The notes beneath the pieces were generated by a model. The model searched no databases. It was not told where the DNA came from and was given only the letters and a program-made list of their open reading frames with translations. A stretch of 64,000 nucleotides of DNA from an uncultured Fibrobacteraceae bacterium (GTDB lineage Bacteria > Krumholzibacteriota > Krumholzibacteriia > LZORAL124-64-63). The stretch lies in the NCBI GenBank assembly GCA_964607825.1, contig CAZSNA010000003.1, positions 552 to 64,551 of the forward strand, written 5' to 3'. The position numbers and the translations under genes were made by a program. Of the stretch, positions 5,935 through 47,447 are shown piece after piece. The number at the start of each line of letters is the position of its first letter. Within the stretch, counting starts at the first letter, position 1.

Positions 5935-5944
5935 ATCAACCTCT

Positions 5945-23513: not shown

Positions 23514-23905
23514 TGAAGCCCTCCTCCCCCACTGCTTCGGTACTGGCCCGGTTGAAAGCCAGCATGTCGCCCTATGAAGCTTGGAGACGGGCTCTGAAAA
23601 CCATCATGAGCTATTTTACTCCCGATTGCAACAGGAATTTTCGCATCAGCTGTCAGGATATTCCTTACAAATTTGACAAGTACATAGACGACACCGAATC
23701 GCCGCCAGGAAAATTGAGAGATAAAAAGTCGAGTTTACATATCTTATATCCCCGGTTCCATCTCCGGGCCCACATGTGGTATACTTGTCTTCCCCGTCAT
23801 GGTCCACAGGTACAGGCACCCGAAGTAACCGCCAACGGGTGGACCGCTCTCGCCATCACTCACACTCACGCCGGCCCGTACGGCCGGAGAGAAGGGGCTT
23901 ACGCA

Positions 23906-27659: not shown

Positions 27660-28484
27660 TCAGTCGGACGTGATCGACAGCCCCTTGTTCCCCTCGCGGT
27701 GCGTCGACAGGGCGAAGATCGCCGTCTCGGGGCAGAAGGCGGCCTCGAGCCGGCCGCGATAGGGCGCCAGGGCCGCGTCGATGCGGGCGGGCACGGCGCC
27801 CTGCCAGGGATAGAGGGAGCGGTCGTCGCCCAGACGCTCCAGCTCCGTCACCAGTTCCTCGATCAGGACCGGGTCGGAGCCCGCGGCGTCCCGGGCGTCG
27901 TCGAGCTGGTGGCGCAGCATGTCGCGCAGGGCGCGGCGGACGCGGGGGCTGGAGTCCTCGACCTGGACGTTGTCGTCGTCGATGTCCTCCACCTGCACCT
28001 CGAGCCAGGCGTAGTAGGCCAGGGCGTAGATGTAGGTGTACTCGCCGAGACCCATGCCGTGGTCCTGCAGCGCCTCGTTGCGGTGGACGGCCAGACGGCC
28101 CAGCTTGCCGGCCATGCCGAAGCCCTCGCGCACGGTCTTGAAGACCTCCTTGATCTTCTGCCCGCCGGAGAGCTCGTCCTCGTCGAGGGCGTCCATGCGG
28201 CGGAACTGGGCGAAGGCCTCGGCGAACTCGCCGCAATGGGCCATCAGCTCGGTCCGTACGTCCAGGAAGATCTCCATGCGGTCGGGCGCGGGCGCGCCGT
28301 CCGGGGGCGGACGGTAGTCGGCCTGGGTCCCGTAGGTCTCCTCGAGCTTCTCGCGCGCGTCGACGGCGTCCTTGAAGGGCTTCATGAGCATGAATCCTCC
28401 GCCGAACGAACAGGCGATCCCCAGCACGATCATCAGCCCGCAACCGATCGCGCAGCCCTTCAGCCAACCCATGCCCGATGCCAT
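27660..28484 (-). CDS. Hypothetical membrane-anchored protein (N-terminal transmembrane segment plus an acidic soluble domain)
   Basis: Starts 'MASGMGWLKGCAIGCGLMIVLGIACSFGGGF'. The longer in-frame upstream extension is Arg-rich junk. Confidence 0.5.
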   Translation of the reverse strand: MASGMGWLKGCAIGCGLMIVLGIACSFGGGFMLMKPFKDAVDAREKLEETYGTQADYRPPPDGAPAPDRMEIFLDVRTELMAHCGEFAEAFAQFRRMDALDEDELSGGQKIKEVFKTVREGFGMAGKLGRLAVHRNEALQDHGMGLGEYTYIYALAYYAWLEVQVEDIDDDNVQVEDSSPRVRRALRDMLRHQLDDARDAAGSDPVLIEELVTELERLGDDRSLYPWQGAVPARIDAALAPYRGRLEAAFCPETAIFALSTHREGNKGLSITSD

Positions 28485-28793: not shown

Positions 28794-29468
28794 ATGAAAC
28801 ATGCCAACGTCATTTCCCTGATCATGGTGATCCTCGGCGCCCTCTGCCTGTTCGCGGGCGAGGCCGAGGCGATCATCGTCGATCTGGACGGCTTCGCGGT
28901 GGGCGCGGTGGTCGCGGGCGAGTCGCCCGACGGCACGCAGACCGCCGCCAACCTCTTCGAGGACTTCACCCTCGTCGTAGACAACTACGGGAACGGGCCG
29001 AACTCGCTGGTGGTCTGCGAATCCGTCGAGTTCATCGGACACGGCGACAAGAGCGCGGACAAGGGCCCTGGCAACGGCGGAGACCACATCATGATGATCG
29101 CCGGTAACGTCCTCGACCGGCGCCCCCCCGACGGCTTGGTGGACGACCCCGTCCACCAGCCGGAGGGCGGGTCTGTGGATGTGCTGTTCTCGGCGCCGGT
29201 GAACATGGCCTACGTCCTGCTCGACGTGACCGAAGCGGAAGGACTGACCTACAAGCTGATCGTGGATGGCGTGCCGACGGTGTCCGTGAGCGACGGCGCG
29301 CAGTGGGAGAACGGAGGGATCTTCATCGATCTGGACGGGTATCTGTCCGTCCAGACCATCCGCCTGGAACTGGGTGGCGGCGTCGGCATCGCGAGAATCG
29401 CGTACTTCCCGGAATCCGTGGCCGCGGAAGCGGCCTCGTGGGGCGCGGTCAAGACGATGTACAGGTAG
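28794..29468 (+). CDS. Small Sec-secreted protein of 224 aa ending in the decapeptide SWGAVKTMYR; a paralogue of 47448..48152
   Basis: RBS GGAGGAGGG, signal peptide 'LIMVILGALCLFAGEAEA', a mature N-terminus 'IIVDLDGF' and the shared C-terminal motif. Confidence 0.65.
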   Translation: MKHANVISLIMVILGALCLFAGEAEAIIVDLDGFAVGAVVAGESPDGTQTAANLFEDFTLVVDNYGNGPNSLVVCESVEFIGHGDKSADKGPGNGGDHIMMIAGNVLDRRPPDGLVDDPVHQPEGGSVDVLFSAPVNMAYVLLDVTEAEGLTYKLIVDGVPTVSVSDGAQWENGGIFIDLDGYLSVQTIRLELGGGVGIARIAYFPESVAAEAASWGAVKTMYR

Positions 29469-29605: not shown

Positions 29606-31273
29606 ATGACCGACTCGTCATCCTCGTCAGCCGACTCCGGCCGCAGGTACGTGCTCGTGGCCTCGCTCCTCGCGCTGGCGCTGGCCAGATTCGCCTTCCT
29701 GGGCCATGCCCCGCTCAGATTCGACGAGATCTTCCAGCTGATCCGGACTCTCAATCTCCCGGACATGGGCGATTCCTTCGCGGCGTCCCTGATGGCGTCC
29801 AAGCCCAGCGCGATCCTGCACTACGGGTCGATCCGCATCTTCGGCGCGGACGCGTTCGGCACCCGCTTCCCGATCGTCCTGCAGAGCCTGGTCATCGCCC
29901 TGGCCACCTTCGTGATCGCCCGCCATGTCTTCGACAAGCGCACGGCGATCATCGCGACCTTCGTCTCCCTGTTGCTTCCGTACAACTTCGCCTATGGGCG
30001 ATATGCCCAGTACGACATCGGCCAGACCTGCTGGTTCGCTCTCGGCGCGATGTTCTTCATCTGCAACGACCGGCGCGGCCTGAAACGGAACGTATTGAGC
30101 GGCCTGTTCTTCGCCATGGCCTTCCTGGGCAAGTTCAACGCGCTGATCCTGCAGATGATCCTGTACTTCGTGTTCGTGGTGGTCGCGATCCGGGACCTGA
30201 GGGCCTGGCGGTACTGCATCCTGAATCTCGTCCTGTTCGCCGTGTTCCTCCTGGTCCTCAAGGCGCCCTGCCTCGACGAGCTCGCGGCCTCGATGATGGC
30301 CTGGCTCGGCGCGATCTTCGTCAAGTCCACGGGCGCGACGGGCCTGTCGCTCGGCGCCGCAGCCGCGAGGGTGCTGCAGCTGGTCGTGATCGCCGTGACC
30401 CTTCCCCTGTTCGGGGTCATGCTCTACTCGGTCGTTCGCGTCCGGCGCCGTCCCGGCCTCGCGACGGTGCTCGTCCTGTCCTGCGTCCTGTACTTCCTGG
30501 TCCTCATGCTCCAGGGCCGGATCGCGCCCCGCTACCTCAACCTGGTGATGCCCTTCGCGTGCATCGTGGCGGCGGCCGGCCTGAGGGATCTCTGGGATGC
30601 GAGGGCGTCGCGGTTCGGCAAGCCGATCCTGGTCGCGCTGGCGGCGGCGACCTTCGCCCAGGGCGCCGTCAGCTACGGCGAGTACATCCGCTGGGAGCGC
30701 GAACACGAGCCGTTCGAGGCCATCGGCGACTTCGCCCGCACCGAACTCGAGCCTGCCGGCGGGCGGATCTTCCTGCCGAAGAACTTCCCTTACAACACCG
30801 TGGGCATCATGCAGATGGAGACCGCCTGGACGAACGGAGTCCATGACGAGACCCGGGCCGGGATCTACCACCTGGACTACTCGCCGCACAGCTTCCTGGA
30901 GTGGTCCCGCACGCCCACGTCCCGCATGCTGCTGGCGGAGTGGATCGAGCAGAACCACGACCGGTTGCTCGAGCTCGGCCCGGCCGGCCTGAAGCGGGAG
31001 TTCGCCGGCTTCATGGACGCCGATTCCCTGTCCGACACCGTTCACGCGTCCTACGACCTGTGCGAACTCGCGTCGAGCGGGATCCTGCGCGACGGCGACC
31101 ACGTCTTCGTGCGCGACAGGAGCGACGTGATGTACCCCTCGCTCTGGCCGTCCGATCCGCCGGCGACGGACACCTGTCTCCCGCTGGCGGGCCTCGACCA
31201 CGAGGTCGTCGAGACCTTCACGTTCGTGAATTCGGAGCGGCGCTACGGCCGCTTCGTCCGGATCGGCCGGTGA
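29606..31273 (+). CDS. GT39/GT83-type membrane glycosyltransferase (ArnT/PMT-like; undecaprenyl-phosphate-sugar-dependent)
   Basis: About 555 aa and polytopic, with 'RFDEIFQLIRT' and an aromatic-rich periplasmic C-terminal domain. RBS GGAAGGG precedes the ATG at 29606. Confidence 0.7.
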   Translation: MTDSSSSSADSGRRYVLVASLLALALARFAFLGHAPLRFDEIFQLIRTLNLPDMGDSFAASLMASKPSAILHYGSIRIFGADAFGTRFPIVLQSLVIALATFVIARHVFDKRTAIIATFVSLLLPYNFAYGRYAQYDIGQTCWFALGAMFFICNDRRGLKRNVLSGLFFAMAFLGKFNALILQMILYFVFVVVAIRDLRAWRYCILNLVLFAVFLLVLKAPCLDELAASMMAWLGAIFVKSTGATGLSLGAAAARVLQLVVIAVTLPLFGVMLYSVVRVRRRPGLATVLVLSCVLYFLVLMLQGRIAPRYLNLVMPFACIVAAAGLRDLWDARASRFGKPILVALAAATFAQGAVSYGEYIRWEREHEPFEAIGDFARTELEPAGGRIFLPKNFPYNTVGIMQMETAWTNGVHDETRAGIYHLDYSPHSFLEWSRTPTSRMLLAEWIEQNHDRLLELGPAGLKREFAGFMDADSLSDTVHASYDLCELASSGILRDGDHVFVRDRSDVMYPSLWPSDPPATDTCLPLAGLDHEVVETFTFVNSERRYGRFVRIGR

Positions 31274-31444
31274 TCCCGGCGGCGCCCCGGTGCGCCGTCG
31301 CCGACGGCCGGCCGCAGATGGCGGGGTGCCGCTTCCGGGGCGGCCTGATAGAATGGTCAGGTTGCACGACCACCAGCCGATAACCGGACGAAGGCACCCG
31401 GAAGACGTTGCGCTCGCGAAACTTCGACAAGGCGGACGACGCCC

Positions 31445-32584
31445 ATGCAGTATCGGATCCCCTTCAACAAGCCCTTCATCGTGGGCAAGGAGCTCTATTA
31501 CATCGCCCAGGCCGTCCTGGACGGACGGATCGCCGGCGATGCGCCCTACACGAAGAAGTGCCAGTCGCTGATGGAGGCGCGCTTCGACGCGCGCAAGATC
31601 CTGCTGACCCACTCCTGCACGGCGGCCCTGGAGATGGCGGCCATCCTGGGCGGCGTGTCCGAGGGCGACGAGGTGATCCTCCCCTCCTACACCTTCGTCT
31701 CCACCGCCAACGCCTTCTACCTACGCGGCGCGCGGCTGAAGTTCGTCGACGTGCGGCCCGACAACCTGAACATGGACCTGGGCTCCCTCGAGGCGGCGAT
31801 CACGCCGCAGACCAAGGCCGTGGTGCCGGTGCACTACGCGGGGATCGGCTGCGAGATGGACGAGATCATGGCGCTGGCCGACGCGCACGACTTCCTGGTG
31901 ATCGAGGACGCGGCCCAGGGCGTCAGCGCCACCTACAAGGGGCGGCACCTGGGTACGCTGGGGCACTTCGGCACCTACAGCTTCCACGAGACCAAGAACT
32001 ACATCTGCGGCGAGGGCGGCGCGCTGGTCATCAACGACGAGCGCTTCGTCGAACGCGCGGAGATCATCCGCGAGAAGGGCACCAACCGCAGCCAGTTCTT
32101 CCGCGGCGAGGTGGACAAGTACACCTGGGTCGACCTGGGCTCCTCGTTCCTGCCCTCGGACCTGCTGGCGGCGTTCCTGTACGCCCAGCTCGAGAACATG
32201 GACAAGATCAACGCCCGTCGGGGCGAGATCTACGCCTACTACCGGGCCGCCCTGCAGCCCCTGGCCGACCAGGGCCGGCTGATGCTGCCCGCGGACCATC
32301 CCGACTGCGTGGGTAACCACCACCTCTTCTACGTGATCCTGGAATCCGAGGAACTGCGCGACGGGCTGATGGACCACCTGAAGTCCCACGGCATCCTGGC
32401 GGTCTTCCACTACCTGCCGCTGCACCTGTCGCCCGTCGGCCGGCGCATGGGCGGAGAGCCCGGCTCGCTGCCGATCACCGAGTCGGTGGCCGGACGGCTG
32501 CTGCGGCTGCCATTCTACTACGAGCTGACGAGGGCGGAGCAGGAAGAGGTCGTCGAGCGCATCGAAGAATTCTTCGCCGGCTAG
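31445..32584 (+). CDS. wecE: DegT/DnrJ/EryC1-family sugar aminotransferase, closest to dTDP-4-amino-4,6-dideoxygalactose transaminase WecE/RffA
   Basis: N-terminus 'IPFNKPFIVGKELYYIAQAVLDG...CQSLMEARFDARKILLTHSCTAALEMAA...ILPSYTFVSTANAF' is nearly collinear with E. coli WecE. Confidence 0.85.
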   Translation: MQYRIPFNKPFIVGKELYYIAQAVLDGRIAGDAPYTKKCQSLMEARFDARKILLTHSCTAALEMAAILGGVSEGDEVILPSYTFVSTANAFYLRGARLKFVDVRPDNLNMDLGSLEAAITPQTKAVVPVHYAGIGCEMDEIMALADAHDFLVIEDAAQGVSATYKGRHLGTLGHFGTYSFHETKNYICGEGGALVINDERFVERAEIIREKGTNRSQFFRGEVDKYTWVDLGSSFLPSDLLAAFLYAQLENMDKINARRGEIYAYYRAALQPLADQGRLMLPADHPDCVGNHHLFYVILESEELRDGLMDHLKSHGILAVFHYLPLHLSPVGRRMGGEPGSLPITESVAGRLLRLPFYYELTRAEQEEVVERIEEFFAG

Positions 32585-32913
32585 ACGGAAAAGACGACGA
32601 TCCCCGCCACGATCAGGCCCGCCCCGGCCACCATGCGGCCGTTGAGCTCCTCCTTCAGCACCCAGCGCGACAGGATCATCGTGGCCACGTAGGTCATGGA
32701 GATCCAGGCCGTGACTGTCTTCAGGGGGATGACCTGCATGGCGTAGACGTTGAGCACCGTCACCAGCAGGAACAGGCCATAGCCGACGATCGTGTGCGGG
32801 TTGAGGAAGCTTCCGAGCAGGCTGGACTTGTTCCGCGCCCCGCTGCGCAGGAGCACCTGCGAGACGGCGGTCAGGACGATGCCCAGTCCCAGCGCGGCGG
32901 CGTGGAGGCTCAT
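32581..32913 (-). CDS. Small DMT/SMR-like transporter subunit (ArnE/ArnF-like), 110 aa
   Basis: Four transmembrane helices and an ATGA overlap with the upstream partner. The long upstream extension of the ORF is an artefact. Confidence 0.6.
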   Translation of the reverse strand: MSLHAAALGLGIVLTAVSQVLLRSGARNKSSLLGSFLNPHTIVGYGLFLLVTVLNVYAMQVIPLKTVTAWISMTYVATMILSRWVLKEELNGRMVAGAGLIVAGIVVFSV

Positions 32914-33284
32914 GTCCGCGCCTCCCCTCGTCCCTGGCTGGCCCCGATCAGGAACACCCCGCCCACGATCAGCAGGATGCCGCCGATCTGGTTCAGGTGC
33001 ACGGTTTCGCCGAACACCGTGGCGGCCGTCGCCAGGTTGATCACGAAGACCAGGCTCAGGAAGGGATAGGCCACGTTCAGGGGCAGATGGCGCAGGGTCA
33101 GGATCCACCACACCGACTGCAGGAAGAGCGAGAGCAGGGCCCCCAGGTACCAGGGGCTGAGCAGCATGGCGGGGAAGGCGGCGTCCTGCAGGGCCGTCTT
33201 CTTGGCCAGGATCGACGCCAGCGACCGGAACACGATCGCCAGCGTGATCCACAGCAGGGCGCGGGCGCCGAATCTAGTCGCCAT
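32910..33284 (-). CDS. Small DMT/SMR-like transporter subunit (ArnF/ArnE-like), 124 aa
   Basis: Four transmembrane helices. Paired with 32581..32913, as ArnE and ArnF are. Confidence 0.6.
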   Translation of the reverse strand: MATRFGARALLWITLAIVFRSLASILAKKTALQDAAFPAMLLSPWYLGALLSLFLQSVWWILTLRHLPLNVAYPFLSLVFVINLATAATVFGETVHLNQIGGILLIVGGVFLIGASQGRGEART

Positions 33285-34194
33285 CGCAATCCGCGAAGAC
33301 CTGGAGCTGGCAGATGGCCTCGTGGCGCGCCAGGGTCTTGCGGGCAGCCTTGAGCGTGGGCGGCGAGATGAACTTGCCGTCGACGACCAGGATGCCGCGT
33401 CCCTCCTTGCGGGCCTTCTCGGCCTCCTCCACGACGCTGCGGGCGTACTCGACCGCCTCGTCGCTCGGGGTGTAGATGGCGTGCGCCGTCTCGATCTGCT
33501 TGGGCGTCATGACCAGCATGCCGTCCATGCCCAGGTCGCGGGCCTGCTGCGCGAAGGTCTTAAGGCCCTCGTTGTCGTGCACCCTCACGTAGGGGGTGTC
33601 GATGGGCACCACGCCGGCGGCGCGCGCGGCCATGACCACGTTCGAGCGCGGCGTGTGCAGGGTCTCGTAGTTGGCGCCGTAGGTGGCCTCGATCTCGGCC
33701 AGGTAGTCCTCGCAGCCGTAGAGCAGGCCCACCACGCGGTCCGAGGCGGTGGCCAGCTCGTAGGCGTTGATGGCGGCGAGCGGCGTCTCGATCAGCACGA
33801 TGATGGAGAAGTGGCCGCGGGGCAGGTCCTTGTGCACCTCGATCAGGCGCAGCTGGGCGTCGAAGTTCTTGATGTCGTCGGCGGTGTAGGCCATGGGGTA
33901 GACGAAGCCGTGCAGCTCCTTGCAGGCCACGCCCTCGAGGTCCTGCAGCGTGAGGCCGGTCTCCAGCGGGTTGATGCGCGAGAAGACGGTCTTGCGGGCG
34001 TAGAGCCCGCTCTCGAGGACCTCCCGGATCTTGACGCGGGCGTTGGCCTTCTCGTCCACCGGCACGGCGTCCTCCAGATCAAGCACCACGCAGTCGGCGT
34101 CGGTGCCGGGCGCCTTGCCGAGCATCTTGTCGATGTGGCCGGGCACGAAGAGCAGGGTGCGCAGGGACCAGGGTCCGTCGTAGGGCTTCGTCAT
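33274..34194 (-). CDS. HpcH/HpaI aldolase / citrate lyase beta (CitE)-like acyl-CoA lyase
   Basis: 'LLFVPGH...VVLDLEDAV' and 'GLLYGCEDYLAEI' are CitE/malyl-CoA lyase-like. Confidence 0.8.
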   Translation of the reverse strand: MTKPYDGPWSLRTLLFVPGHIDKMLGKAPGTDADCVVLDLEDAVPVDEKANARVKIREVLESGLYARKTVFSRINPLETGLTLQDLEGVACKELHGFVYPMAYTADDIKNFDAQLRLIEVHKDLPRGHFSIIVLIETPLAAINAYELATASDRVVGLLYGCEDYLAEIEATYGANYETLHTPRSNVVMAARAAGVVPIDTPYVRVHDNEGLKTFAQQARDLGMDGMLVMTPKQIETAHAIYTPSDEAVEYARSVVEEAEKARKEGRGILVVDGKFISPPTLKAARKTLARHEAICQLQVFADCDGD

Positions 34195-34214
34195 GGTCGG
34201 TTCCCTCCGGGGAT

Positions 34215-34686
34215 CTAGGCGGACTCCCGCGACGGCAACAGCACCCGTCGGCGGAAGGTCAGAACTTTCTCGTCGTTCTGGTTGTAGGCGCGGGTCTCCA
34301 CGTACAGGACGCCGCGGTCGGGCTTGCTGCGCGAACGGGTCACCTCGAGCACGGCGGTCTCGGCGCGCAGCGTGTCGCCCAGGAAGACCGGGCCGTCGTG
34401 GGTCACCTTCTCGTATTCCAGGTTGGCGATGGCCGCGCCGGAGACCTCCGACACGGTCATGCCCACCACCACGCTCAGCACGTAGGTCCCGACCACCAGG
34501 ACCCGGCCGTGGGTCTGGCCGGCGCAGTACTCCACGTCCAGGTGGACGGGATGGTGGTTCATGGTCAGCAGGCAGAAGAGGTTGTTGTCGCTCTCGGTCA
34601 CCGTCTTGCGCGGCCAGTGCTCGATGACCGCGCCGACCTCGAAGTCCTCGAGGTGCCGGCGGAAGGGCCCGGTCGGCGCGCTCACG
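34215..34686 (-). CDS. MaoC-like (R)-specific enoyl-CoA hydratase/dehydratase (hot-dog fold)
   Basis: 'FCLLTMNHHPVHLD' is the hot-dog hydratase motif. GTG start with RBS GGAGAAGAC. Confidence 0.75.
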
Positions 34687-35383
34687 ACGTCTTCTCCGGA
34701 TCGGAGGGATCCTCGTCGTACTGGGCGACGGTGCCGATGATCTTCGCAGGGTTGCCCACGGCGATCTCGCCCTCCCCCACGTCCTTGAGGATCACCGCGC
34801 CGATGCCGACGATGGCGTAGGCGCCGATGGTCACGTCCTCGCGCATGCTGCAGTTGGTGCCCAGGTGGGCGCCCTCGCCGATGAGACAGCGGGCGCCGAT
34901 CGCCGAGTTGTTGGCGACCCAGGCGAAGTCCTCCAGCCGGCTGTCGTGGCCGACGAAGGCGTTGCCGTAGAGGTGGTTGTGGTTGGCGACGACCGCGCCG
35001 AAGGAGAGGTTCACCTGGGCGCAGAGCAGCGAGCCATGGCCGATGCCCTCGGCGCCCGAGGTCTGGGTCGACGGGTGCACGAAGGTGGCGAAGGCCTCCC
35101 CGGGGATGCCCATCTCGCGGAAGCGGGCCAGACGCGACTTCGCGTACTTGGCGTTGCGCATGGCGTAGTGGACGAACACGCCCTGCTCGGCGAAGCCGGG
35201 GGCCTCGGCGGTGCGGCCGACCACCGGGTAGGCGCCGATCTCGGCGCCGATCTCCTCGACGTCGTTCAGGTAGCCGCGGATCTCCCACTCGGGCTCGTGG
35301 GCGTTGATGTCCTCGATCACCGAGGCGACTATCTGTCCCGATCCCAGGCCGCCCATGATGACGACCGGCTTCAATGCGCTCAT
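34682..35383 (-). CDS. Hexapeptide-repeat sugar N-acyltransferase (NeuD/PglD/WecD-like)
   Basis: N-terminal Rossmann-like 'VVIMGGLGSGQ', a C-terminal left-handed beta-helix of hexapeptide repeats, and a stop/start overlap with the GT2 gene. Confidence 0.8.
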   Translation of the reverse strand: MSALKPVVIMGGLGSGQIVASVIEDINAHEPEWEIRGYLNDVEEIGAEIGAYPVVGRTAEAPGFAEQGVFVHYAMRNAKYAKSRLARFREMGIPGEAFATFVHPSTQTSGAEGIGHGSLLCAQVNLSFGAVVANHNHLYGNAFVGHDSRLEDFAWVANNSAIGARCLIGEGAHLGTNCSMREDVTIGAYAIVGIGAVILKDVGEGEIAVGNPAKIIGTVAQYDEDPSDPEKTS

Positions 35384-36348
35384 ATGTCCTCTCTCGCGTC
35401 TGTCGTGTGCGTGGGCTGCGGCGGCGCGGACCCGCCGAGGCGGCGTCTGACGAAGAAGGCGGGGTTGCCCTCGGTGCTCTGTATGGCGCGCAGCAGGTAC
35501 TCCCCCATGATCCCCATGATCAGCATGATGGTGCCGCCCAGCAGCAGCAGGGTGGCCATCAGCGAGGCCCAGCCCTGGATGGGCACGTCCATCACCAGCT
35601 TCTGGTAGAGCACCACGAAGAACATCGCCAGGCTCAGGGCCGCGAGCCCCATGCCCAGGTAGGCGAACATGCGCAGCAGGAACGAGGAGTTGTTGATGAT
35701 CAGGTTGCTGAACAGCTTGATCATGCGGCCGAGCGAGTAGCCGCTCTGGCCGTCCTCGCGCGGCTGGTGGTCGATGTCGACGCCCACGATGTCCTTGCTG
35801 ACCTGGAAGAGCAGCGCCGGCATGAAGGGGTTCGGGGTGCGGAAGAGCTTGAGCCCCTCGGCGACGGTGCGGCTGTACAGGCGGAACGACGTGCTCTGCA
35901 GATGCTTGGGCTTGCCGATCAGCGTGTAGTCGAACCAACCCTTGAGCCAGCTCGTCGCGCGCTTGAAGACGTTGTGGCGCTTGCGCCGGAACTGGCCCAG
36001 CACGATGTCGTGGTCCGACGCGTCCAGGAACAGCGGGATGTCCTCGGGACGGTGCTGCAGGTCGTCGTCCATGGTCATCACGACGTCGCCCCGCGCCTCG
36101 GCGTTGCCGCAGAGGGTGGCCCCCTGCTGGCCGAAGTTGCGGGTGAGCTGAATGATCTTCACGCGCGGCCAGTCGTCGGCCACGGCTTCCAGCGCGGGCC
36201 AGGTGGCCGGGCTGGGCGAGCAGTCGTCGACGAAGATCAGCTCGTAGTCGTCGCCGGCGCGGTCGCGGAACACCGCGTCGACGCGGCGTGCGATCTCGGG
36301 CAGCGTCTTGGCGGTGTTGTAGACCGGGATGACGATCGAAACCAGCAT
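35380..36348 (-). CDS. GT2 polyprenyl-phosphate glycosyltransferase (ArnC/DPM1-like) with C-terminal transmembrane helices
   Basis: 'VSIVIPVYNTAKTLPEI', 'FVDDCS' and 'TMDDDLQHRPEDIP' (DxD/QxxRW-type), plus two C-terminal transmembrane segments. Confidence 0.85.
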   Translation of the reverse strand: MLVSIVIPVYNTAKTLPEIARRVDAVFRDRAGDDYELIFVDDCSPSPATWPALEAVADDWPRVKIIQLTRNFGQQGATLCGNAEARGDVVMTMDDDLQHRPEDIPLFLDASDHDIVLGQFRRKRHNVFKRATSWLKGWFDYTLIGKPKHLQSTSFRLYSRTVAEGLKLFRTPNPFMPALLFQVSKDIVGVDIDHQPREDGQSGYSLGRMIKLFSNLIINNSSFLLRMFAYLGMGLAALSLAMFFVVLYQKLVMDVPIQGWASLMATLLLLGGTIMLIMGIMGEYLLRAIQSTEGNPAFFVRRRLGGSAPPQPTHTTDAREDI

Positions 36349-36515
36349 GCACTCTCTCCTGACGTCCGCGCGAACGGGTCGGTTTCCGGCCCTTGTGGCG
36401 GATAATCTAGCACCCGCGGCGTCCCCCTGGCGAGCGGGATTCCGGTTAAAACGGCGCCGCCGGGGCCCAGAGGGGCTCCCGGCGGCGTATCAGCAAGGCG
36501 TATACCAGCTTGCGG

Positions 36516-37997
36516 CTAGAACCCCCCGAACCGTTCGATCGCCCGGTCCGCGAATTCCTTCAGCGGCGCCCACTTCACCCCGAAGTACAGCGTCGGCAGC
36601 GCCAGCACGGCCATGGTCACGTAGTGCAGCGGCGCCACGTTCACCGCGGGGGCGTCCTCGGGCGCCTTCGTGAAGAACAGGGCCTTGGCGATCTTCATGT
36701 AGTAGAAGAGGCTCACCACGCTGTTCAGCACGCCGACGATGGCCAGCCAGTACCACTCGCGCCGCATGACCTCGGCGAAGAGGTAGAACTTGCCGATGAA
36801 GCCGGCGGTGGGCGGCAGGCCGGTCAGGGAGATCAGGAACACGAACATCATGGCCGCGGCCCAGGGGACGCGGAAGCCCAGCCCGGCGTAGTCGTCGAGG
36901 TGCTCGCTGCGCAGCGAGTTGTTGACGGCCACCACGAAGAGGAACGCGCCCAGGTTCATGAGCGAGTAGACCAGCAGGTAGAAGAGGATGGCCTGCAGGC
37001 CCTCGGGCGTGAGCATCAGGAAGCCCATCATCAGGTAGCCCACGTGGGCGATGCTCGAGTAGGCGAGCATGCGCTTCACGTTGTCCTGCCGCACGGCCGC
37101 CAGGTTGCCGTAGGTCATGGTCGCCACCGAGAGGACGGCGATCAGCAGGGGGAAGTCGAGCTCGCCGACCAGCGGCGCCAGGGTCGTGTAGAAGAAGCGG
37201 ATCAGCAGGGCGAAGCCCGCGGCCTTGGGCGCCACCGAGAAGAAGCCGGCCACCGGGGTCGGCGAGCCCTCGTAGACGTCCGGGCACCAGAAGTGGAAGG
37301 GCACCATGGCGATCTTGTAGCCGAGGCCGGCGAAGATCAGCAGCGAGATGGTCAGCAGGACCAGCGGGTCGACCGCGCCGGCCATCAGGGCCGCGCGGAT
37401 GCCGTCGAAGGTCATCGCGCCGGTCAGGCCGAACACCAGCGAGAGGCCGAAGAGCATCACGCCCGAGCTGACCGCGCCGAAGATCATGTACTTGACCGAG
37501 GCCTCGGTGGCGCGCAGCGAGCCGCGCATGTAGCCAGCCATGACGTAGCTCGTCAGCGAGACCAGCTCCAGCGAGAGGTAGAGCATCAGCAGGTCGCGGG
37601 CGGCGGCCATGACCATCATGCCGCCGGTCATCAGGGCGATCAGGGCGTAGTACTCGCCCTTGTGCTCGCGGGTGCGGCCCATGATCTCCTCGCTGCACCA
37701 CGAGAGCAGCACCGTGATCAGGGCCACGAAGGCGAACAGCACCCGGAAGAAGGCGGCCATGCCGTCCACGACCACCAGCTCGCCGAGGATCGAGCGGGCC
37801 TCGCCGTCGAGGCCGGCCACCGCGAAACCGAGTGCGGCCGCCGAGCCGAGCAGCACGATCACGAAGGGCACCACCGTGCGCCGGCGGGCGATCATGTCGC
37901 CCACCAGGGCCAGCAGGAAGGCGCCGAACAGGATCGCCTCGGGGATGAATCCCCCCATGTCGGACCAGCTCGGGATTTGCAGTGTTTCCAGACTCAC
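36516..37997 (-). CDS. nuoN: NADH-quinone oxidoreductase subunit N
   Basis: 493 aa, polytopic and NuoN-like. Confidence 0.9.
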   Translation of the reverse strand: MSLETLQIPSWSDMGGFIPEAILFGAFLLALVGDMIARRRTVVPFVIVLLGSAAALGFAVAGLDGEARSILGELVVVDGMAAFFRVLFAFVALITVLLSWCSEEIMGRTREHKGEYYALIALMTGGMMVMAAARDLLMLYLSLELVSLTSYVMAGYMRGSLRATEASVKYMIFGAVSSGVMLFGLSLVFGLTGAMTFDGIRAALMAGAVDPLVLLTISLLIFAGLGYKIAMVPFHFWCPDVYEGSPTPVAGFFSVAPKAAGFALLIRFFYTTLAPLVGELDFPLLIAVLSVATMTYGNLAAVRQDNVKRMLAYSSIAHVGYLMMGFLMLTPEGLQAILFYLLVYSLMNLGAFLFVVAVNNSLRSEHLDDYAGLGFRVPWAAAMMFVFLISLTGLPPTAGFIGKFYLFAEVMRREWYWLAIVGVLNSVVSLFYYMKIAKALFFTKAPEDAPAVNVAPLHYVTMAVLALPTLYFGVKWAPLKEFADRAIERFGGF

Positions 37998-38025
37998 CGG
38001 AACTTCTCCCTAGCGACGGCCGCGG

Positions 38026-39522: not shown

Positions 39523-39552
39523 CGAGTCGCTCCTCTCGGAATGAATCCGGGC

Positions 39553-41748: not shown

Positions 41749-41764
41749 CGTGTTCCCGTCTCCC

Positions 41765-42073
41765 TTATCGCTTCAGCCGGTTGACGGTCTCCACGTGGAC
41801 CGTCCCGAAATTGCGGAACATGGCCAGCACGATCGCCAGGCCGACGGCGGCCTCGGCCGCGGCCAGCACGATCACGAAGGCGGCCATGATGTGGCCGTCG
41901 ACCCCCGTCGCCACGTAACGGGAGAAGGCCACGAAGTTGAGGTTCGCCGAGTTCAGGATCAGCTCCACGCCCATCAGCAGGGCGACCGTGTTGCGCCGGG
42001 TCATGACGGCGAACAGGCCGAGGGCGAAGAGGATCGCCGCGACGGTCAGGTAATGCTCCAGTCCGACGGTCAT
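41765..42073 (-). CDS. nuoK: NADH-quinone oxidoreductase subunit K
   Basis: 102 aa with 'LLMGVELILNSANLNFVAF'. Confidence 0.9.
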   Translation of the reverse strand: MTVGLEHYLTVAAILFALGLFAVMTRRNTVALLMGVELILNSANLNFVAFSRYVATGVDGHIMAAFVIVLAAAEAAVGLAIVLAMFRNFGTVHVETVNRLKR

Positions 42074-42624: not shown

Positions 42625-42627
42625 GTC

Positions 42628-43218: not shown

Positions 43219-43254
43219 GACCGCTCCCTGAAACGTTGACCTTGTCGTCCGCGG

Positions 43255-44304: not shown

Positions 44305-44306
44305 GG

Positions 44307-46129: not shown

Positions 46130-46137
46130 GTCGTCCC

Positions 46138-47213: not shown

Positions 47214-47447
47214 CGGAATGCCGGCCCCCATGGCGTTGAGTGATGGGATGGCTCGGAACGGAATCCACCGGGAAGCGCGCGTCCGCGGCGCGGTTCCCGC
47301 CGCGAAAATCGCATCCGGACAAATACAGGCATCAGGGCGTGCCGTGTCAAGAAGCATGTGCCGGACATGGAGGTGGCGCGCAGGCGTCCGGTGTGGGAAA
47401 GTCGGGCCCATACAGGTTCATTCATACCCGTTCGTCGGAGGAATCCC

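What the first reader, a model, noticed from the sequence alone, without database searches (positions are those of the whole stretch)
29606..36348. An Arn-like undecaprenyl-phosphate amino-sugar modification cluster with non-canonical composition
The cluster contains a GT39/ArnT-like transferase (29606..31273), a WecE-type 4-aminotransferase (31445..32584) and two ArnE/ArnF-like four-transmembrane subunits (32581..33284). It also contains a PglD/NeuD-like N-acyltransferase (34682..35383) and an ArnC-like GT2 polyprenyl-phosphate glycosyltransferase (35380..36348). This is the logic of the lipid A aminoarabinose pathway: make an amino sugar, load it on undecaprenyl phosphate, flip it, then transfer it to lipid A or a protein. 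Here there is no ArnA or ArnD. The aminotransferase is of the dTDP-4-keto-6-deoxyhexose type, and an N-acyltransferase is present. So the transferred sugar is more likely an N-acylated 4-amino-4,6-dideoxyhexose. The acceptor is unknown: lipid A, or a protein given the PMT-like fold of the GT39 enzyme.
Basis: inference. Interest (0 to 1): 0.55.

Follow-up and report, generated by a model that had tools for sequence, protein, structure and literature searches.

The report
Periplasmic acylated amino-sugar decoration gene cluster
This is a real, conserved eight-gene cluster from an uncultured bacterium that most likely makes an acylated amino sugar, loads it on a membrane lipid carrier, flips it across the inner membrane and attaches it to an unknown cell-surface molecule; it follows a known type of pathway but combines parts not described together before.

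Summary
Both are translationally coupled into the same minus-strand operon (GT2, N-acyltransferase, MaoC, CitE-like, two small EamA proteins). That operon converges on a plus-strand pair: the large membrane glycosyltransferase (GT-C fold) and the aminotransferase.

The aminotransferase passes the WecE equivalog cut-off. The GT2 matches ArnC/GtrB over its full length, including two C-terminal membrane helices. The acyltransferase is closest to VioB, PglB and PerB.

The GT-C belongs to a tiny orphan subfamily. Its nearest solved fold is ArnT, not PMT, so the GT39 label is wrong.

The six-gene operon plus the convergent aminotransferase recurs at 70-77% identity in another metagenome next to an unrelated PMT_2 GT-C. 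The acyltransferase-MaoC-CitE-GT2 core recurs in about six loci, once directly after rmlA. A 45%-identical GT-C sits in a classic gtrB-gtrA-GT-C arrangement.

Best reading: an Arn/Gtr-type three-component system delivering N-acylated dTDP-derived Fuc4N. The acyl group, possibly malyl- or mesaconyl-like, and the acceptor remain inferred. This is a new variant of a known kind, of moderate interest.

The parts
29606..31273 (+). GT-C-fold polytopic membrane glycosyltransferase (555 aa). Pfam PMT_2 type, with a C-terminal periplasmic domain. Proposed third component, which transfers the sugar from polyprenyl phosphate to the acceptor.
   Evidence: - PMT_2 38.7 bits, above cut-off; ArnT equivalog only 24 bits against 567.
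- AF2 model: pLDDT 72, pTM 0.74.
- Foldseek best hits are ArnT 5ezm/5f15 (E 6e-8, TM about 0.5), then the oligosaccharyltransferases AglB/STT3; PMT1/2 score E 0.04-0.14.
- Invariant motifs: LR[YF]DE after TM1, RYAQYDIGQ, and QGR..RY.
- Only 4 clusters reach E<=1e-30 among 1.84 billion representatives.
31445..32584 (+). WecE-type PLP aminotransferase (379 aa). Proposed reaction: dTDP-4-keto-6-deoxy-D-glucose to dTDP-4-amino-4,6-dideoxyhexose (Fuc4N by orthology).
   Evidence: - NCBIfam PRK11706, 583 bits against cut-off 375; TIGR02379, 544 against 435.
- PDB: E. coli WecE 4piw E 2e-137, against ArnB 7e-54.
- 59-72% identical orthologues accompany the module in L013, L014, L015 and L011.
32581..32913 (-). 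Small membrane protein of about 4 helices (110 aa), EamA/SMR-like. Proposed flippase subunit.
   Evidence: - Pfam EamA 32.6 bits, above cut-off.
- Weak similarity to SMR transporters.
- Hydropathy profile.
- 71% identical orthologue at the same position in L013, 61% in L019.
32910..33284 (-). Small membrane protein of about 4 helices (124 aa), ArnE/ArnF-like. Proposed flippase subunit.
   Evidence: - NCBIfam ArnF 40 bits and ArnE 37 bits, both below their cut-offs of 99 and 92.
- Pfam TMEM234/EamA, sub-threshold.
- 76% identical orthologue in L013.
- 4-nt overlap with the next gene.
33274..34194 (-). CitE/HpcH-HpaI-family acyl-CoA lyase homologue (306 aa). Proposed to make or edit the acyl-CoA donor.
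   Evidence: - Pfam HpcH_HpaI E 5.6e-41.
- Best PDB hits: malyl-CoA/beta-methylmalyl-CoA lyase 5ugr (3e-33) and 4l9y, CitE 1sgj, CLYBL 5vxc, RipC 3qll.
- All NCBIfam equivalogs are below cut-off.
- 65-75% identical orthologues follow the acyltransferase and MaoC genes in L013, L014, L019 and L020.
- Lacks the C-terminal Asp and the IHP His conserved in characterised relatives.
34215..34685 (-). Single-domain MaoC-type (R)-hydratase/dehydratase (156 aa). Proposed to hydrate or dehydrate the acyl-CoA donor.
   Evidence: - Pfam MaoC_dehydratas 66 bits and MC_hydratase 60 bits.
- RipB/Ich 129 bits, below the cut-off of 340.
- Best PDB hits: Chloroflexus mesaconyl-CoA hydratase 4e3e (4e-22) and beta-methylmalyl-CoA dehydratase 8hgn.
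- Six module-linked homologues share 78% mean column identity.
34682..35383 (-). PglD/VioB/PerB-type left-handed beta-helix N-acyltransferase (233 aa). Proposed to acylate the 4-amino group of the nucleotide sugar.
   Evidence: - TIGR03570 124.9 bits, below the cut-off of 160.8.
- PDB: VioB 7txp 6e-18, PglB acetyltransferase domain 4m98 3e-14, PerB 4ea7 8e-14.
- Foldseek best hits are 4m98 and WeeI.
- Invariant H146-D147.
- Compact family of about 20 proteins at 53-87% identity.
35380..36348 (-). ArnC/GtrB-type GT2 polyprenyl-phosphate glycosyltransferase (322 aa) with two C-terminal membrane helices. First gene of the minus-strand operon.
   Evidence: - Pfam GT2 E 2e-28.
- Full-length PDB matches to ArnC 9hwj (1.4e-37), 9bhc and 8vxh, and to GtrB 5ekp (2e-30).
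- Hydrophobic segments at 223-255 and 259-286.
- 84% and 71% identical orthologues in L016 and L013.
36349..36515 (-). Intergenic region between nuoN and the GT2 gene. It contains a G+C-rich inverted repeat (CGCCGGG...CCCGGCG) just after nuoN. This may separate the nuo operon from the glycosylation operon.
   Evidence: Read directly from the sequence. The pattern scan found no consensus promoter here. The separation is an inference only.

Best explanation
The locus encodes a three-component periplasmic glycosylation system of the Arn/Gtr type, together with the enzymes that build its sugar.

Inferred pathway:
1. dTDP-4-keto-6-deoxy-D-glucose is supplied by rmlA/rmlB, which lie outside the window.
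2. The WecE-type aminotransferase converts it to dTDP-4-amino-4,6-dideoxyhexose, most likely Fuc4N.
3. The PglD/VioB-type acyltransferase N-acylates the 4-amino group while the sugar is still nucleotide-bound. This parallels ArnA formylation before ArnC.
4. The ArnC/GtrB-type GT2 transfers the N-acyl sugar to polyprenyl phosphate.
5. The two small EamA/ArnE-F-like proteins flip the lipid-linked sugar.
6. The GT-C enzyme transfers it in the periplasm to an envelope acceptor.

The MaoC hydratase and the CitE-like protein are translationally coupled between the acyltransferase and the flippase genes. They most likely make or edit a short hydroxy- or enoyl-(di)carboxylic acyl-CoA (malyl-, methylmalyl-/citramalyl- or mesaconyl-like) that serves as the acyl donor. 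No ArnD-like deacylase is encoded in the cluster or found in the window, so the acyl group is probably retained. The product would then be neutral or anionic, unlike the cationic Ara4N.

The acceptor is unknown. A glycan or LPS acceptor is more likely than a protein.

What is shown: gene content, family assignments, and conservation of the module. What is inferred: every enzymatic step, the nucleotide specificity of the GT2, the acyl group and the acceptor.
For: **Family assignments**
- WecE equivalog passed; WecE 4piw 2e-137 against ArnB 7e-54.
- The acyltransferase is closest to enzymes that acylate the C4 amine of nucleotide-linked 4-amino-6-deoxyhexoses: VioB, PglB acetyltransferase domain, PerB.
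- The GT2 aligns over its full length with ArnC and GtrB structures and has two C-terminal membrane helices.
- There are two small proteins of about 4 membrane helices, with weak ArnE/F and EamA hits.
- The GT-C has the GT-C_A fold, is nearest to ArnT, and carries a conserved DE motif after TM1.

**Operon structure**
- Overlaps of 4 nt (three junctions) and 11 nt (one) join GT2/AcT, AcT/MaoC, CitE/EamA1 and EamA1/EamA2. This can be read directly from the coordinates.

**Conservation**
- L013 carries PMT_2 GT-C, GT2, AcT, MaoC, CitE and two EamA genes, converging on DegT. Identity is 70-77% for all except the GT-C. The locus lies inside a Wzx/Wzy/Wza polysaccharide cluster.
- MAG CSMAG_1813 keeps nuoM-nuoN-GT2-AcT-MaoC at 82-89% identity.
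- The AcT-MaoC-CitE-GT2 core recurs in L014 (preceded by a true rmlA, followed by DegT), L019 (plus two EamA), L020 and L010.
- Variant loci keep AcT, GT2 and DegT next to a large polytopic membrane protein (L011: DUF6798; L015: DUF6044 plus two small EamA-like proteins). They swap MaoC/CitE for CapK-like ligases or for ATP-grasp plus sulfotransferase.
- L021 has a GT2 C-terminus, then GtrA (66 bits), then a GT-C 45% identical to the window's.

**Chemical precedent**
- N-(4-malyl) amino sugars occur in O-polysaccharides of Pseudoalteromonas, Vibrio vulnificus and Shewanella (PMC3210612).
- Three-component systems with variable GT-C enzymes are an established paradigm (PMC11127046).
Against: - The closest GT-C homologues (48-55% identity) are not next to any GT2, aminotransferase or flippase. 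They sit beside an AMP-binding ligase, a carrier protein and an AsnB-like gene.
- The window GT-C and the L013 GT-C show only remote profile-level similarity. GT-C linkage therefore rests on adjacency in two loci plus L021.
- No rmlA or rmlB lies in the 64-kb window.
- All ArnC/ArnE/ArnF/ArnT, NeuD-family, RipB/RipC and Mcl/Mch models score below their curated cut-offs.
- The CitE-like clade lacks the C-terminal Asp. By position this is CLYBL D320, whose D320A variant is catalytically null. It also lacks the IHP His conserved in all characterised relatives. It may not be a canonical lyase.
- In a neighbour-joining tree, the acyltransferase linked to ATP-grasp (L015) nests among the MaoC/CitE-linked ones. 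Acyl-donor specificity therefore cannot be read from the acyltransferase.
- No ArnC/GtrB-type enzyme known to me uses a dTDP-sugar (own knowledge).
- There are no expression or biochemical data; all organisms are uncultured.
Confidence: 0.6

Rival explanations
1. The sugar module is real, but the adjacent GT-C is not its partner. The six-gene operon plus the aminotransferase would feed polyprenyl-phosphate-sugar to a GT-C encoded elsewhere. The neighbouring GT-C would use another donor, and its position would be a coincidence or a recent insertion.
For: - GT-C homologues at 48-55% identity lie in an unrelated, conserved neighbourhood.
- In MAG CSMAG_1813 the module genes and nuoM/N are 82-89% identical to the window, but the only GT-C homologue is 48% identical and lies on another contig.
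- The GT-C is on the opposite strand from the GT2 operon.
Against: - A PMT_2-type GT-C also borders the orthologous module in L013, at the other end of the module.
- Large polytopic membrane proteins (DUF6798, DUF6044) border the variant modules.
- The GT-C lies immediately upstream of the module's own aminotransferase, on the same strand.
- A 45%-identical GT-C follows GT2 and GtrA in L021.
- Swapping of the GT-C between otherwise conserved modules is normal for Gtr systems (PMC11127046).
Confidence: 0.2
2. The acyltransferase is a plain acetyltransferase, so the delivered sugar is Fuc4NAc. MaoC and the CitE-like protein would not supply the N-acyl donor; they would serve an unrelated or accessory metabolic role.
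For: - The closest characterised relatives (VioB, PglB, PerB) all use acetyl-CoA (the donor is own knowledge).
- The acyltransferase tree does not separate MaoC/CitE-linked members from the others.
- The CitE-like protein lacks the canonical catalytic Asp.
Against: - The acyltransferase, MaoC and CitE-like genes are adjacent in the same order in at least six independent loci. In the window they are translationally coupled, sitting between the acyltransferase and the flippase genes.
- The module-linked MaoC and CitE-like proteins are highly conserved (65-78%) and keep the metal-binding and Arg motifs.
- No other acyltransferase in the operon could use their product.
- The anthrose operon is a precedent for an in-operon hydratase feeding an LbH N-acyltransferase acting on a dTDP-4-amino sugar (own knowledge).
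Confidence: 0.2
3. This is a true functional analogue of Arn. The GT-C modifies lipid A or core phosphate, and the sugar is deacylated in the periplasm by an unlinked enzyme. The exposed amine would give resistance to cationic peptides.
For: - ArnT is the nearest solved fold.
- The organism is diderm, with BamA/Omp85, TolC-like and AcrB-like genes.
- The gene logic parallels Arn.
Against: - No ArnD-like deacetylase or deformylase was found in the window or in any related locus.
- The ArnT equivalog scores 24 bits against a cut-off of 567; TM is about 0.5 at 16-17% identity.
- The orthologous module in L013 sits in a Wzx/Wzy/Wza polysaccharide locus.
Confidence: 0.12
4. This is a protein O-glycosylation system, as the reader's PMT-like reading suggested. 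The GT-C would glycosylate secreted or T9SS-cargo proteins.
For: - A Pfam PMT_2 hit and a DE motif after TM1.
- A secreted 224-aa protein is encoded just upstream of the GT-C, and T9SS cargo genes lie nearby here and in L019.
Against: - Pfam PMT proper is below its cut-off, and no MIR domain was reported by Pfam at E<=0.01.
- Yeast PMTs rank far below ArnT and the oligosaccharyltransferases in the fold search.
- PMT_2 is a broad family that includes ArnT-like enzymes.
- T9SS cargo genes are frequent in such genomes, so their proximity says little.
Confidence: 0.08

Closest known systems
Arn (PmrHFIJKLM) lipid A 4-amino-4-deoxy-L-arabinose pathway
   Same: - A sugar aminotransferase of the DegT family.
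- N-acylation of the nucleotide sugar before transfer to the lipid carrier.
- An ArnC-type GT2 with C-terminal membrane helices (best PDB hits are ArnC).
- Two small four-helix subunits with weak ArnE/F similarity.
- A GT-C whose nearest solved fold is ArnT.
   Different: - The aminotransferase is WecE-type, acting on a dTDP-hexose, not ArnB-type, acting on a UDP-pentose.
- There is no ArnA (dehydrogenase/decarboxylase and formyltransferase) and no ArnD deformylase.
- The acyl group is put on by an LbH PglD/VioB-type enzyme and is probably retained.
- Two acyl-CoA-metabolising genes are added.
- No component reaches any Arn equivalog cut-off.
- The acceptor is unknown.
Gtr-type and related three-component periplasmic glycosylation systems (GtrA/GtrB/Gtr*; GacI/J/L; CsbB/GtcA/YfhO; the GT136 pentofuranose systems; PMC11127046)
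   Same: - A polyprenyl-phosphate GT2 synthase, a small flippase and a GT-C transferase encoded together.
- The GT-C is the variable, specificity-giving part, while synthase and flippase are conserved (window against L013).
- A relative of this GT-C lies in a gtrB-gtrA-GT-C row (L021).
   Different: - The donor is a dTDP-derived N-acyl 4-amino-4,6-dideoxyhexose rather than Glc, GlcNAc, Gal or a pentofuranose.
- The sugar-building and acyl-building genes are part of the cluster.
- The flippase is a pair of EamA/SMR-like half-size proteins rather than GtrA or a MATE protein.
Anthrose operon antABCD of Bacillus anthracis (own knowledge, not retrieved here)
   Same: - A dTDP-4-amino-4,6-dideoxyhexose is made by a DegT aminotransferase.
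- It is N-acylated by an LbH acyltransferase with a non-acetyl hydroxyacyl-CoA.
- That acyl-CoA is supplied by an enoyl-CoA hydratase encoded in the same operon.
   Different: - The hydratase there is crotonase-type, not MaoC-type.
- There is no CitE-like gene.
- The sugar is used by a cytoplasmic glycosyltransferase, not loaded on polyprenyl phosphate for periplasmic transfer.
Enterobacterial common antigen Fuc4NAc branch (WecE/WecD/WecF)
   Same: The aminotransferase is a WecE orthologue by the NCBIfam equivalog cut-off and by its PDB match.
   Different: - The N-acyltransferase here is LbH (VioB/PglD-like), not the GNAT enzyme WecD.
- The product is proposed to go to polyprenyl phosphate as a monosaccharide, not to Lipid II of ECA through WecF.
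MaoC + CitE-like enzyme pairs of CoA-ester metabolism: RipB/RipC (Ich/Ccl) of itaconate degradation, and Mch/Mcl of the 3-hydroxypropionate and ethylmalonyl-CoA pathways
   Same: - Adjacent MaoC-type hydratase and CitE-like genes.
- Best PDB hits are mesaconyl-CoA hydratase / beta-methylmalyl-CoA dehydratase and malyl-CoA / beta-methylmalyl-CoA lyase.
   Different: - All equivalog scores are far below cut-off.
- There is no CoA-transferase (RipA) partner.
- The hydratase has a single domain.
- The CitE-like clade lacks the C-terminal catalytic Asp and the IHP His.
- The genes are embedded in a glycan operon.

Membership tests
Arn lipid A aminoarabinose pathway | ArnB: UDP-4-keto-pentose aminotransferase | tested here: not met
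   The ArnB equivalog NF008658 scores 204 bits against a cut-off of 631. The WecE equivalog scores 583 against 375. PDB: WecE 2e-137 against ArnB 7e-54.
Arn lipid A aminoarabinose pathway | ArnA (UDP-GlcA dehydrogenase/decarboxylase plus formyltransferase) and ArnD (deformylase) present | tested here: not met
   No formyltransferase, ArnA-type or polysaccharide-deacetylase domain was found in the roughly 50 window genes scanned against Pfam. None appears in the precomputed Pfam gene tables of the related loci either.
Arn lipid A aminoarabinose pathway | ArnC: undecaprenyl-phosphate Ara4FN transferase | tested here: inconclusive
   The architecture is the same and the best PDB hits are ArnC (1.4e-37, full length). 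The equivalog NF007986 scores only 143 bits against a cut-off of 529. It is a family member, not an orthologue.
Arn lipid A aminoarabinose pathway | ArnT: lipid A Ara4N transferase (GT83) | tested here: not met
   NF009784 scores 24 bits against a cut-off of 567. A sequence search of the PDB finds nothing. ArnT is only the nearest fold, at TM about 0.5 and 16-17% identity.
Arn lipid A aminoarabinose pathway | ArnE/ArnF heterodimeric flippase | tested here: inconclusive
   There are two adjacent proteins of 110 and 124 aa, each with about 4 membrane helices. One hits ArnF at 40 bits and ArnE at 37 bits, against cut-offs of 99 and 92. The other passes Pfam EamA.
Three-component periplasmic glycosylation system (Gtr-like) | GT2 polyprenyl-phosphate monosaccharide synthase with C-terminal membrane helices | tested here: met
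   Full-length matches to ArnC and GtrB structures. Two hydrophobic segments at residues 223-286.
Three-component periplasmic glycosylation system (Gtr-like) | Small membrane protein or proteins as candidate flippase, encoded alongside | tested here: met
   A pair of EamA/SMR-like four-helix proteins lies in the same operon. The pair is conserved in L013, L019 and L015. Flipping activity itself cannot be tested here.
Three-component periplasmic glycosylation system (Gtr-like) | GT-C-fold transferase encoded alongside | tested here: met
   AF2 model with pTM 0.74; all top Foldseek hits are GT-C enzymes. The gene is adjacent to the module here. A different PMT_2 GT-C is adjacent in L013. A 45%-identical relative follows GT2 and GtrA in L021.
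Three-component periplasmic glycosylation system (Gtr-like) | Demonstrated lipid-linked monosaccharide donor and modified acceptor | not testable with these tools
   This needs biochemistry or genetics; the organisms are uncultured.
GT39 protein O-mannosyltransferase (PMT) | Match to the PMT model; luminal MIR domain; fold closest to Pmt1/2/4 | tested here: not met
   PF02366 scores 16.8 bits against a cut-off of 22.7, and no MIR domain was reported by Pfam at E<=0.01. Pmt1/Pmt2/Pmt4 score E 0.04-0.23 and TM about 0.3, far below ArnT and the oligosaccharyltransferases. A DE motif after TM1 is present, but ArnT-like enzymes share it.
WecE dTDP-4-keto-6-deoxy-D-glucose 4-aminotransferase | Scores above the curated equivalog cut-off over the full length | tested here: met
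   NF008687 scores 583 bits against 375, covering residues 4-377 of 379. TIGR02379 scores 544 against 435. E. coli WecE 4piw: 2e-137. The stereochemistry of the product is inferred, not tested.
NeuD/PglB/VioB sugar N-acetyltransferases | Two-domain PglD architecture, catalytic His, family model cut-off | tested here: inconclusive
   TIGR03570 scores 124.9 bits against a cut-off of 160.8, over the full length. The best PDB hits are VioB, PglB acetyltransferase domain and PerB. H146-D147 is invariant in the family. Foldseek best hits are 4m98 and WeeI, but the model is mediocre (pLDDT 74, pTM 0.49). The acyl-CoA specificity is unknown.
Itaconate degradation RipB/RipC (Ich/Ccl) | Equivalog scores; RipA CoA-transferase partner; catalytic Asp in the lyase | tested here: not met
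   RipB scores 129 bits against 340 and RipC 133 against 375. No CoA transferase lies in the cluster. The C-terminal Asp is replaced by Ser.
Malyl-CoA lyase / mesaconyl-CoA hydratase (Mcl/Mch) | Equivalog scores; fused double-MaoC hydratase; catalytic Asp in the lyase lid | tested here: not met
   NF041626 scores 70 bits against 500 and NF041625 61 against 560. The hydratase has a single domain of 156 aa, against about 350 aa. The lid Asp is absent. These remain the best PDB matches.

The most novel reading that the evidence does not exclude
This would be a modular family of three-component envelope-decoration systems in uncultured FCB-type bacteria, and the first fed by a dTDP-sugar.

An ArnC-like synthase would load an N-acyl-Fuc4N onto polyprenyl phosphate. 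The acyl group would be a C4-C5 hydroxy- or enoyl-dicarboxylate (malyl-, citramalyl- or mesaconyl-like) made by an in-operon hydratase and an atypical CitE-like enzyme recruited from CoA-ester carbon metabolism. That CitE-like enzyme lacks the canonical catalytic Asp.

The result would be a neutral or anionic mirror image of the cationic Ara4N modification. Both the acyl-building cassette (MaoC/CitE, ATP-grasp plus sulfotransferase, or CapK ligases) and the GT-C (PMT_2 subfamilies, DUF6798, DUF6044) would be exchangeable. This reading would also give a genetic basis for the N-malyl amino sugars seen in marine O-polysaccharides. I found no description of such a basis in the searches run here.
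Probability: 0.3. Interest if true: 0.7.

Novelty: new variant of a known kind. Interest (0 to 1): 0.55.

Why it matters
If the reading is right, three things follow.

- **Wider donor range.** Arn/Gtr-type periplasmic glycosylation would extend to dTDP-derived 6-deoxy amino sugars. It would also supply a candidate for the first ArnC/GtrB-family enzyme that uses a dTDP-sugar.
- **Source of unusual acyl groups.** A hydratase and a CitE-like enzyme inside a glycan operon would point to how unusual N-acyl groups on bacterial amino sugars, such as N-malyl, are made.
- **A mix-and-match design.** The acyl cassette and the GT-C appear to be exchangeable across poorly known phyla (Calditrichota, Zixibacteria and relatives). 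This would be useful for predicting surface chemistry from metagenomes and for glycoengineering.

It also shows that Arn-like gene logic need not mean resistance to cationic peptides, because the amine is probably left acylated.

Tried and rejected
- **Sequence search of the PDB with the GT-C:** no relevant hit. I used a predicted structure and a fold search instead.
- **Word-indexed homologue searches with the GT-C:** the single sequence gave 3 hits and the profile added only one, on a contig too short to show context. The exhaustive search confirmed a tiny family. Its members could not be looked up for genomic context.
- **Metagenome scan with the GT-C profile:** a single 1.75-kb locus. It turned out to be informative (L021).
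- **Genome scan with the acyltransferase profile:** 3 loci, two already known and one irrelevant at 25% identity.
- **Acyltransferase structure model:** mediocre (pTM 0.49). It only reconfirmed the PglB/WeeI-like fold and said nothing about the acyl pocket.
- **Promoter and terminator pattern scan of the cluster:** nothing above shuffled expectation.
- **Literature searches:** I searched for MaoC/CitE in O-antigen clusters and for combinations of ArnT, ArnC, WecE and VioB. No description of such a system turned up. The anthrose search returned no primary paper, so that analogy rests on my own knowledge.
- **Search for rmlA/rmlB in the window:** none found.
- **Readings considered and rejected:** GT39/PMT identity of the GT-C; O-antigen ligase or oligosaccharyltransferase identity (ArnT ranks first, and no WaaL-type hit is among the 50 best matches listed); a true itaconate-degradation or 3-hydroxypropionate-cycle role for MaoC and CitE, given their position inside a glycan operon and sub-threshold scores.

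Full report
**1. Observation**

The window is about 68% G+C, so mechanical ORF lists are full of spurious frames. I called genes from third-position G+C. In the flagged region this gives eight genes.

On the + strand:
- a 555-aa polytopic membrane protein (29606-31273);
- a 379-aa aminotransferase (31445-32584).

On the - strand, in transcription order:
- GT2 (35380-36348);
- hexapeptide acyltransferase (34682-35383);
- MaoC-like protein (34215-34685);
- CitE/HpcH-HpaI-like protein (33274-34194);
- two small membrane proteins (32910-33284 and 32581-32913).

An independent gene call on an identical public contig gives the same eight genes.

Within the minus-strand unit the genes overlap by 4, 4, 11 and 4 nt, apart from one 20-nt gap. 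This indicates translational coupling.

Upstream of the GT2 lies nuoN, the end of an 11-subunit-type nuo operon. A 167-nt spacer holding a G+C-rich inverted repeat separates the two.

**2. What each gene is**

*Aminotransferase.* It passes the curated WecE equivalog: 583 bits against a cut-off of 375. It matches E. coli WecE (4piw) at 2e-137, against 7e-54 for ArnB.

*Acyltransferase.* It is closest to VioB (7txp), the acetyltransferase domain of PglB (4m98) and PerB (4ea7). All three acylate the C4 amine of nucleotide-linked 4-amino-6-deoxyhexoses. It falls below the NeuD/PglB/VioB family cut-off: 124.9 bits against 160.8.

*GT2.* It aligns end to end with the ArnC and GtrB structures. It has the two C-terminal membrane helices typical of polyprenyl-phosphate glycosyltransferases. 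It is far below the ArnC equivalog cut-off (143 bits against 529).

*Small membrane proteins.* Both are four-helix EamA/SMR-like proteins. One gives weak ArnE/ArnF hits.

*MaoC-like protein.* It is a single-domain (R)-hydratase. Its best matches are Chloroflexus mesaconyl-CoA hydratase and beta-methylmalyl-CoA dehydratase.

*CitE-like protein.* Its best matches are malyl-CoA/beta-methylmalyl-CoA lyases, then CitE, CLYBL and RipC. Both this protein and the MaoC-like protein are far below the RipB/RipC and Mcl/Mch equivalog cut-offs.

**3. The GT-C**

The only Pfam hit above cut-off is PMT_2. PMT proper (the GT39 model) is below its cut-off, and no MIR domain was reported at E<=0.01.

An exhaustive HMMER search of 1.84 billion representative proteins finds only four clusters at E<=1e-30. 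Everything else is a weak hit to the N-terminal region. This is a very small orphan subfamily.

The subfamily has three invariant motifs:
- LR[YF]DE just after TM1, the position of the catalytic acidic residues in GT-C enzymes;
- RYAQYDIGQ;
- QGR..RY.

An AlphaFold model (pLDDT 72, pTM 0.74) was compared with the PDB:

| Match | E-value | Note |
|---|---|---|
| ArnT (5ezm, 5f15) | 6e-8 to 1e-7 | TM about 0.5 |
| Archaeal and eukaryotic oligosaccharyltransferases | 1e-5 to 1e-4 | |
| ALG9, DPY19, AftB | 1e-3 to 1.7e-2 | |
| Yeast Pmt1/2/4 | 0.04 to 0.23 | |

The protein is thus a GT-C_A enzyme. It is nearest to ArnT but not an ArnT orthologue, and it is not GT39. No O-antigen-ligase hit appears among the 50 best matches listed.

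**4. Is the cluster a functional unit? Evidence from elsewhere**

*The acyltransferase family.* It is compact: about 20 proteins at 53-87% identity. Some are named from Calditrichota and Zixibacteria. Their neighbourhoods are informative.

| Locus | AcT identity | Gene order and context |
|---|---|---|
| L013 (JGI 3300005096) | 74% | PMT_2 GT-C, GT2, AcT, MaoC, CitE, EamA, EamA, converging on DegT; every gene except the GT-C is 70-77% identical to the window; lies in a polysaccharide locus (MurJ/Wzx-like, Poly_export, Wzy_C, a 4,6-dehydratase-like gene) |
| L016 (MAG CSMAG_1813) | 82% | nuoM, nuoN, GT2, AcT, start of MaoC; 82-89% identity, so the position next to nuo is conserved in a relative |
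| L014 | 73% | a true rmlA (464 bits against cut-off 360.65), AcT, MaoC, CitE, GT2, DegT; a DUF6798 membrane protein lies nearby |
| L019 | 71% | AcT, MaoC, CitE, GT2, EamA, EamA |
| L020 | 68% | AcT, MaoC, CitE, LUD-domain protein, GT2 |
| L010 | 62% | AcT, second HpcH-like protein, MaoC, CitE, PanB, LUD-domain protein, GT2 |
| L011 | 58% | DUF6798, AcT, GT2, CapK-like ligase, DegT, CapK-like ligase |
| L015 | 69% | AcT, GT2, ATP-grasp, sulfotransferase, two small EamA-like proteins, DegT, DUF6044 |

The last two rows are variant loci. They keep AcT, GT2 and DegT next to a large polytopic membrane protein but replace MaoC/CitE. A recurring core therefore carries exchangeable acyl cassettes and exchangeable large membrane proteins.

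*The GT-C itself is less tightly linked.* Its closest homologues (55% and 48% identity) always sit in a different setting. On one side is a thiolase, HMGCS/KASIII-like and DUF35 trio. On the other is a convergent AMP-binding ligase, an 81-84-aa PP-binding carrier protein and an AsnB-like gene. No GT2 or aminotransferase lies within 10 kb.

The 48% homologue comes from the same MAG (CSMAG_1813) whose module genes are 82-89% identical to the window. It is therefore a paralogue or a diverged specificity variant, not the orthologue.

The L013 GT-C resembles the window GT-C only at profile level: hhalign probability 87%, with the DE and R..RY motifs aligned. Pairwise BLAST finds no similarity.

In favour of partnership:
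- PMT_2 GT-Cs flank the orthologous module in both loci where the flanks are visible.
- Here the GT-C sits directly upstream of the module's own aminotransferase.
- L021 carries a GT2 C-terminus, then a GtrA-family protein (66 bits), then a GT-C 45% identical to the window's. This is the canonical gtrB-gtrA-gtrC order.

A variable GT-C beside a conserved synthase and flippase is exactly what Gtr-type systems show (PMC11127046).

**5. Most likely mechanism**

1. dTDP-4-keto-6-deoxyglucose comes from rmlA/rmlB. These are not in this window.
2. The WecE orthologue aminates it to dTDP-Fuc4N.
3. The acyltransferase N-acylates the sugar.
4. The ArnC/GtrB-type GT2 transfers it to polyprenyl phosphate.
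5. The EamA pair flips it.
6. The GT-C transfers it to an envelope acceptor.

All these steps are inferred from homology and gene order.

No deacylase was found in the window or in any related locus. The acyl group is therefore probably kept, and the product would be uncharged or anionic. This is a conceptual difference from Ara4N.

The acceptor is unknown. ArnT as nearest fold, and the polysaccharide context of L013, favour a lipid or glycan acceptor over a protein.

**6. The acyl group**

MaoC and the CitE-like gene follow the acyltransferase in at least six independent loci. Here they lie between the acyltransferase and the flippase genes. The simplest reading is that they supply the acyl-CoA donor.

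Their nearest characterised relatives interconvert four kinds of compound:
- acetyl- or propionyl-CoA plus glyoxylate or pyruvate;
- malyl-, beta-methylmalyl- or citramalyl-CoA;
- mesaconyl-CoA;
- itaconyl-CoA.

N-(4-malyl) amino sugars are known in O-polysaccharides of marine bacteria (PMC3210612). L-malyl-CoA is the 4-thioester (own knowledge), so direct transfer would give that amide. The anthrose operon is a precedent for an in-operon hydratase feeding an LbH N-acyltransferase acting on a dTDP-4-amino sugar (own knowledge).

Three caveats apply.

- The module-linked CitE-like clade keeps DLED, Arg73 and the Glu136/Asp163 metal motifs. It replaces the His of 'IHPxQI' with Thr or Ser. It also replaces the Asp of the C-terminal 'Gxx[IV]D' with Ser, giving 'DGKFISPP'. 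By position that Asp is CLYBL D320, whose D320A variant is reported as catalytically null (bioRxiv 10.1101/2024.09.25.614871). The mapping of positions is my own inference.
- The MaoC clade has Asn where PaaZ and 1q6w have the hydratase Asp. The second domain of the Chloroflexus enzyme has the same Asn.
- In a neighbour-joining tree, the acyltransferase linked to ATP-grasp (L015) nests among the MaoC/CitE-linked ones.

The identity of the acyl group, and even the reaction catalysed by the CitE-like protein, therefore remain open.

**7. Comparison with what is known, and novelty**

Functionally this is an Arn/Gtr-type three-component system. It is not a member of the Arn pathway:
- the aminotransferase is WecE-type, not ArnB-type;
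- ArnA and ArnD are absent;
- ArnC, ArnE, ArnF and ArnT equivalog scores are all far below cut-off.

It meets the architectural definition of a three-component system: GT2 synthase, small flippase and GT-C, encoded together. Its activities are untested.

I found no description of a system combining a WecE-type aminotransferase, a VioB/PglD-type acyltransferase, MaoC and CitE-like genes, an ArnC-type synthase and a GT-C.

I rate it a new variant of a known kind, of moderate interest. The core logic is established. The donor sugar, the acyl-building cassette, the modular swapping and the orphan GT-C subfamily are new and testable. The organisms are uncultured, and the chemistry is entirely inferred.

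**8. Source organism**

The organism is diderm, with Omp85/BamA-like, TolC-like and AcrB-like genes. It encodes several proteins with T9SS-type C-terminal sorting domains. The nearest relatives of its genes come from unclassified MAGs and from Calditrichota and Zixibacteria metagenome bins. This fits an uncultured, high-G+C member of the FCB-type lineages. I could not assign it more precisely.

Noticed in passing
window 36516-47417 (- strand): A nuo operon in which nuoD (44307-45476) is followed directly by nuoH (43255-44304), then I, J, K, L, M and N. No nuoE/F/G lies between D and H, so this is the 11-subunit complex I type. The glycosylation operon starts 167 nt after nuoN. MAG CSMAG_1813 (L016) has the same nuoM-nuoN-GT2-AcT order at 82-89% identity.
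   Followed up: partly
L001-L003, L006-L009 (neighbourhoods of GT-C homologues P0002/P0005/P0003): The 48-55% identical GT-C paralogues always lie in the same setting. On one side is a divergent KASIII/HMGCS-like, thiolase and DUF35 (zf-ChsH2/OB) trio. On the other is a convergent AMP-binding ligase, an 81-84-aa PP-binding carrier protein, an AsnB-like amidotransferase and an LDcluster4 gene. This is a conserved but unexplained context, possibly another acyl- or aminoacyl-linked envelope modification.
   Followed up: partly
window 33274-34194 and alignment A3 (L013, L014, L019, L020, L010): The glycan-operon CitE-like clade has lost the C-terminal Asp of the GxxID motif (by position CLYBL D320). 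In most members it has also lost the His of the IHP motif. It keeps the barrel metal-binding and Arg motifs. It may have a non-canonical activity.
   Followed up: partly
window 28794-29468 (+) and 27660-28484 (-): A 224-aa protein with a signal peptide and no Pfam match, ending in ...SWGAVKTMYR, lies 137 nt upstream of the GT-C. A 274-aa N-terminally anchored protein lies divergent to it. Homologues were seen only in contigs of the same species.
   Followed up: no
window 23552-27580 (+), 49269-50357 (+), 58135-60813 (-): Large secreted proteins with FlgD_ig, Por_Secre_tail or CHU_C C-terminal domains, which mark T9SS-type cargo. They include a 1342-aa S8 peptidase and an 892-aa MtrC-like multihaem cytochrome. 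L019 also has four T9SS-tail proteins directly upstream of its AcT-MaoC-CitE-GT2 module.
   Followed up: no
L010 10001-15733; L015 2433-11054; L011 8173-15652: These are variant cassettes around the same acyltransferase family. L010 adds a second HpcH-like protein, a PanB that passes its equivalog cut-off, and a LUD-domain protein. L015 replaces MaoC/CitE with an ATP-grasp (LAL-type) ligase and a sulfotransferase, and pairs with DUF6044 (weak YfhO-like C-terminus). L011 has two CapK-like ligases and DUF6798.
   Followed up: partly
window 32581-32584: The convergent aminotransferase and small membrane protein genes overlap by 4 nt at their 3' ends. This leaves no room for an intergenic terminator between the two units.
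   Followed up: no
window 4402-6003 (-): A Wzx-type polysaccharide flippase gene (Polysacc_synt/MurJ-like) lies about 24 kb from the cluster. It is next to a POTRA-domain protein. No other glycan-assembly genes were seen around it.
   Followed up: no
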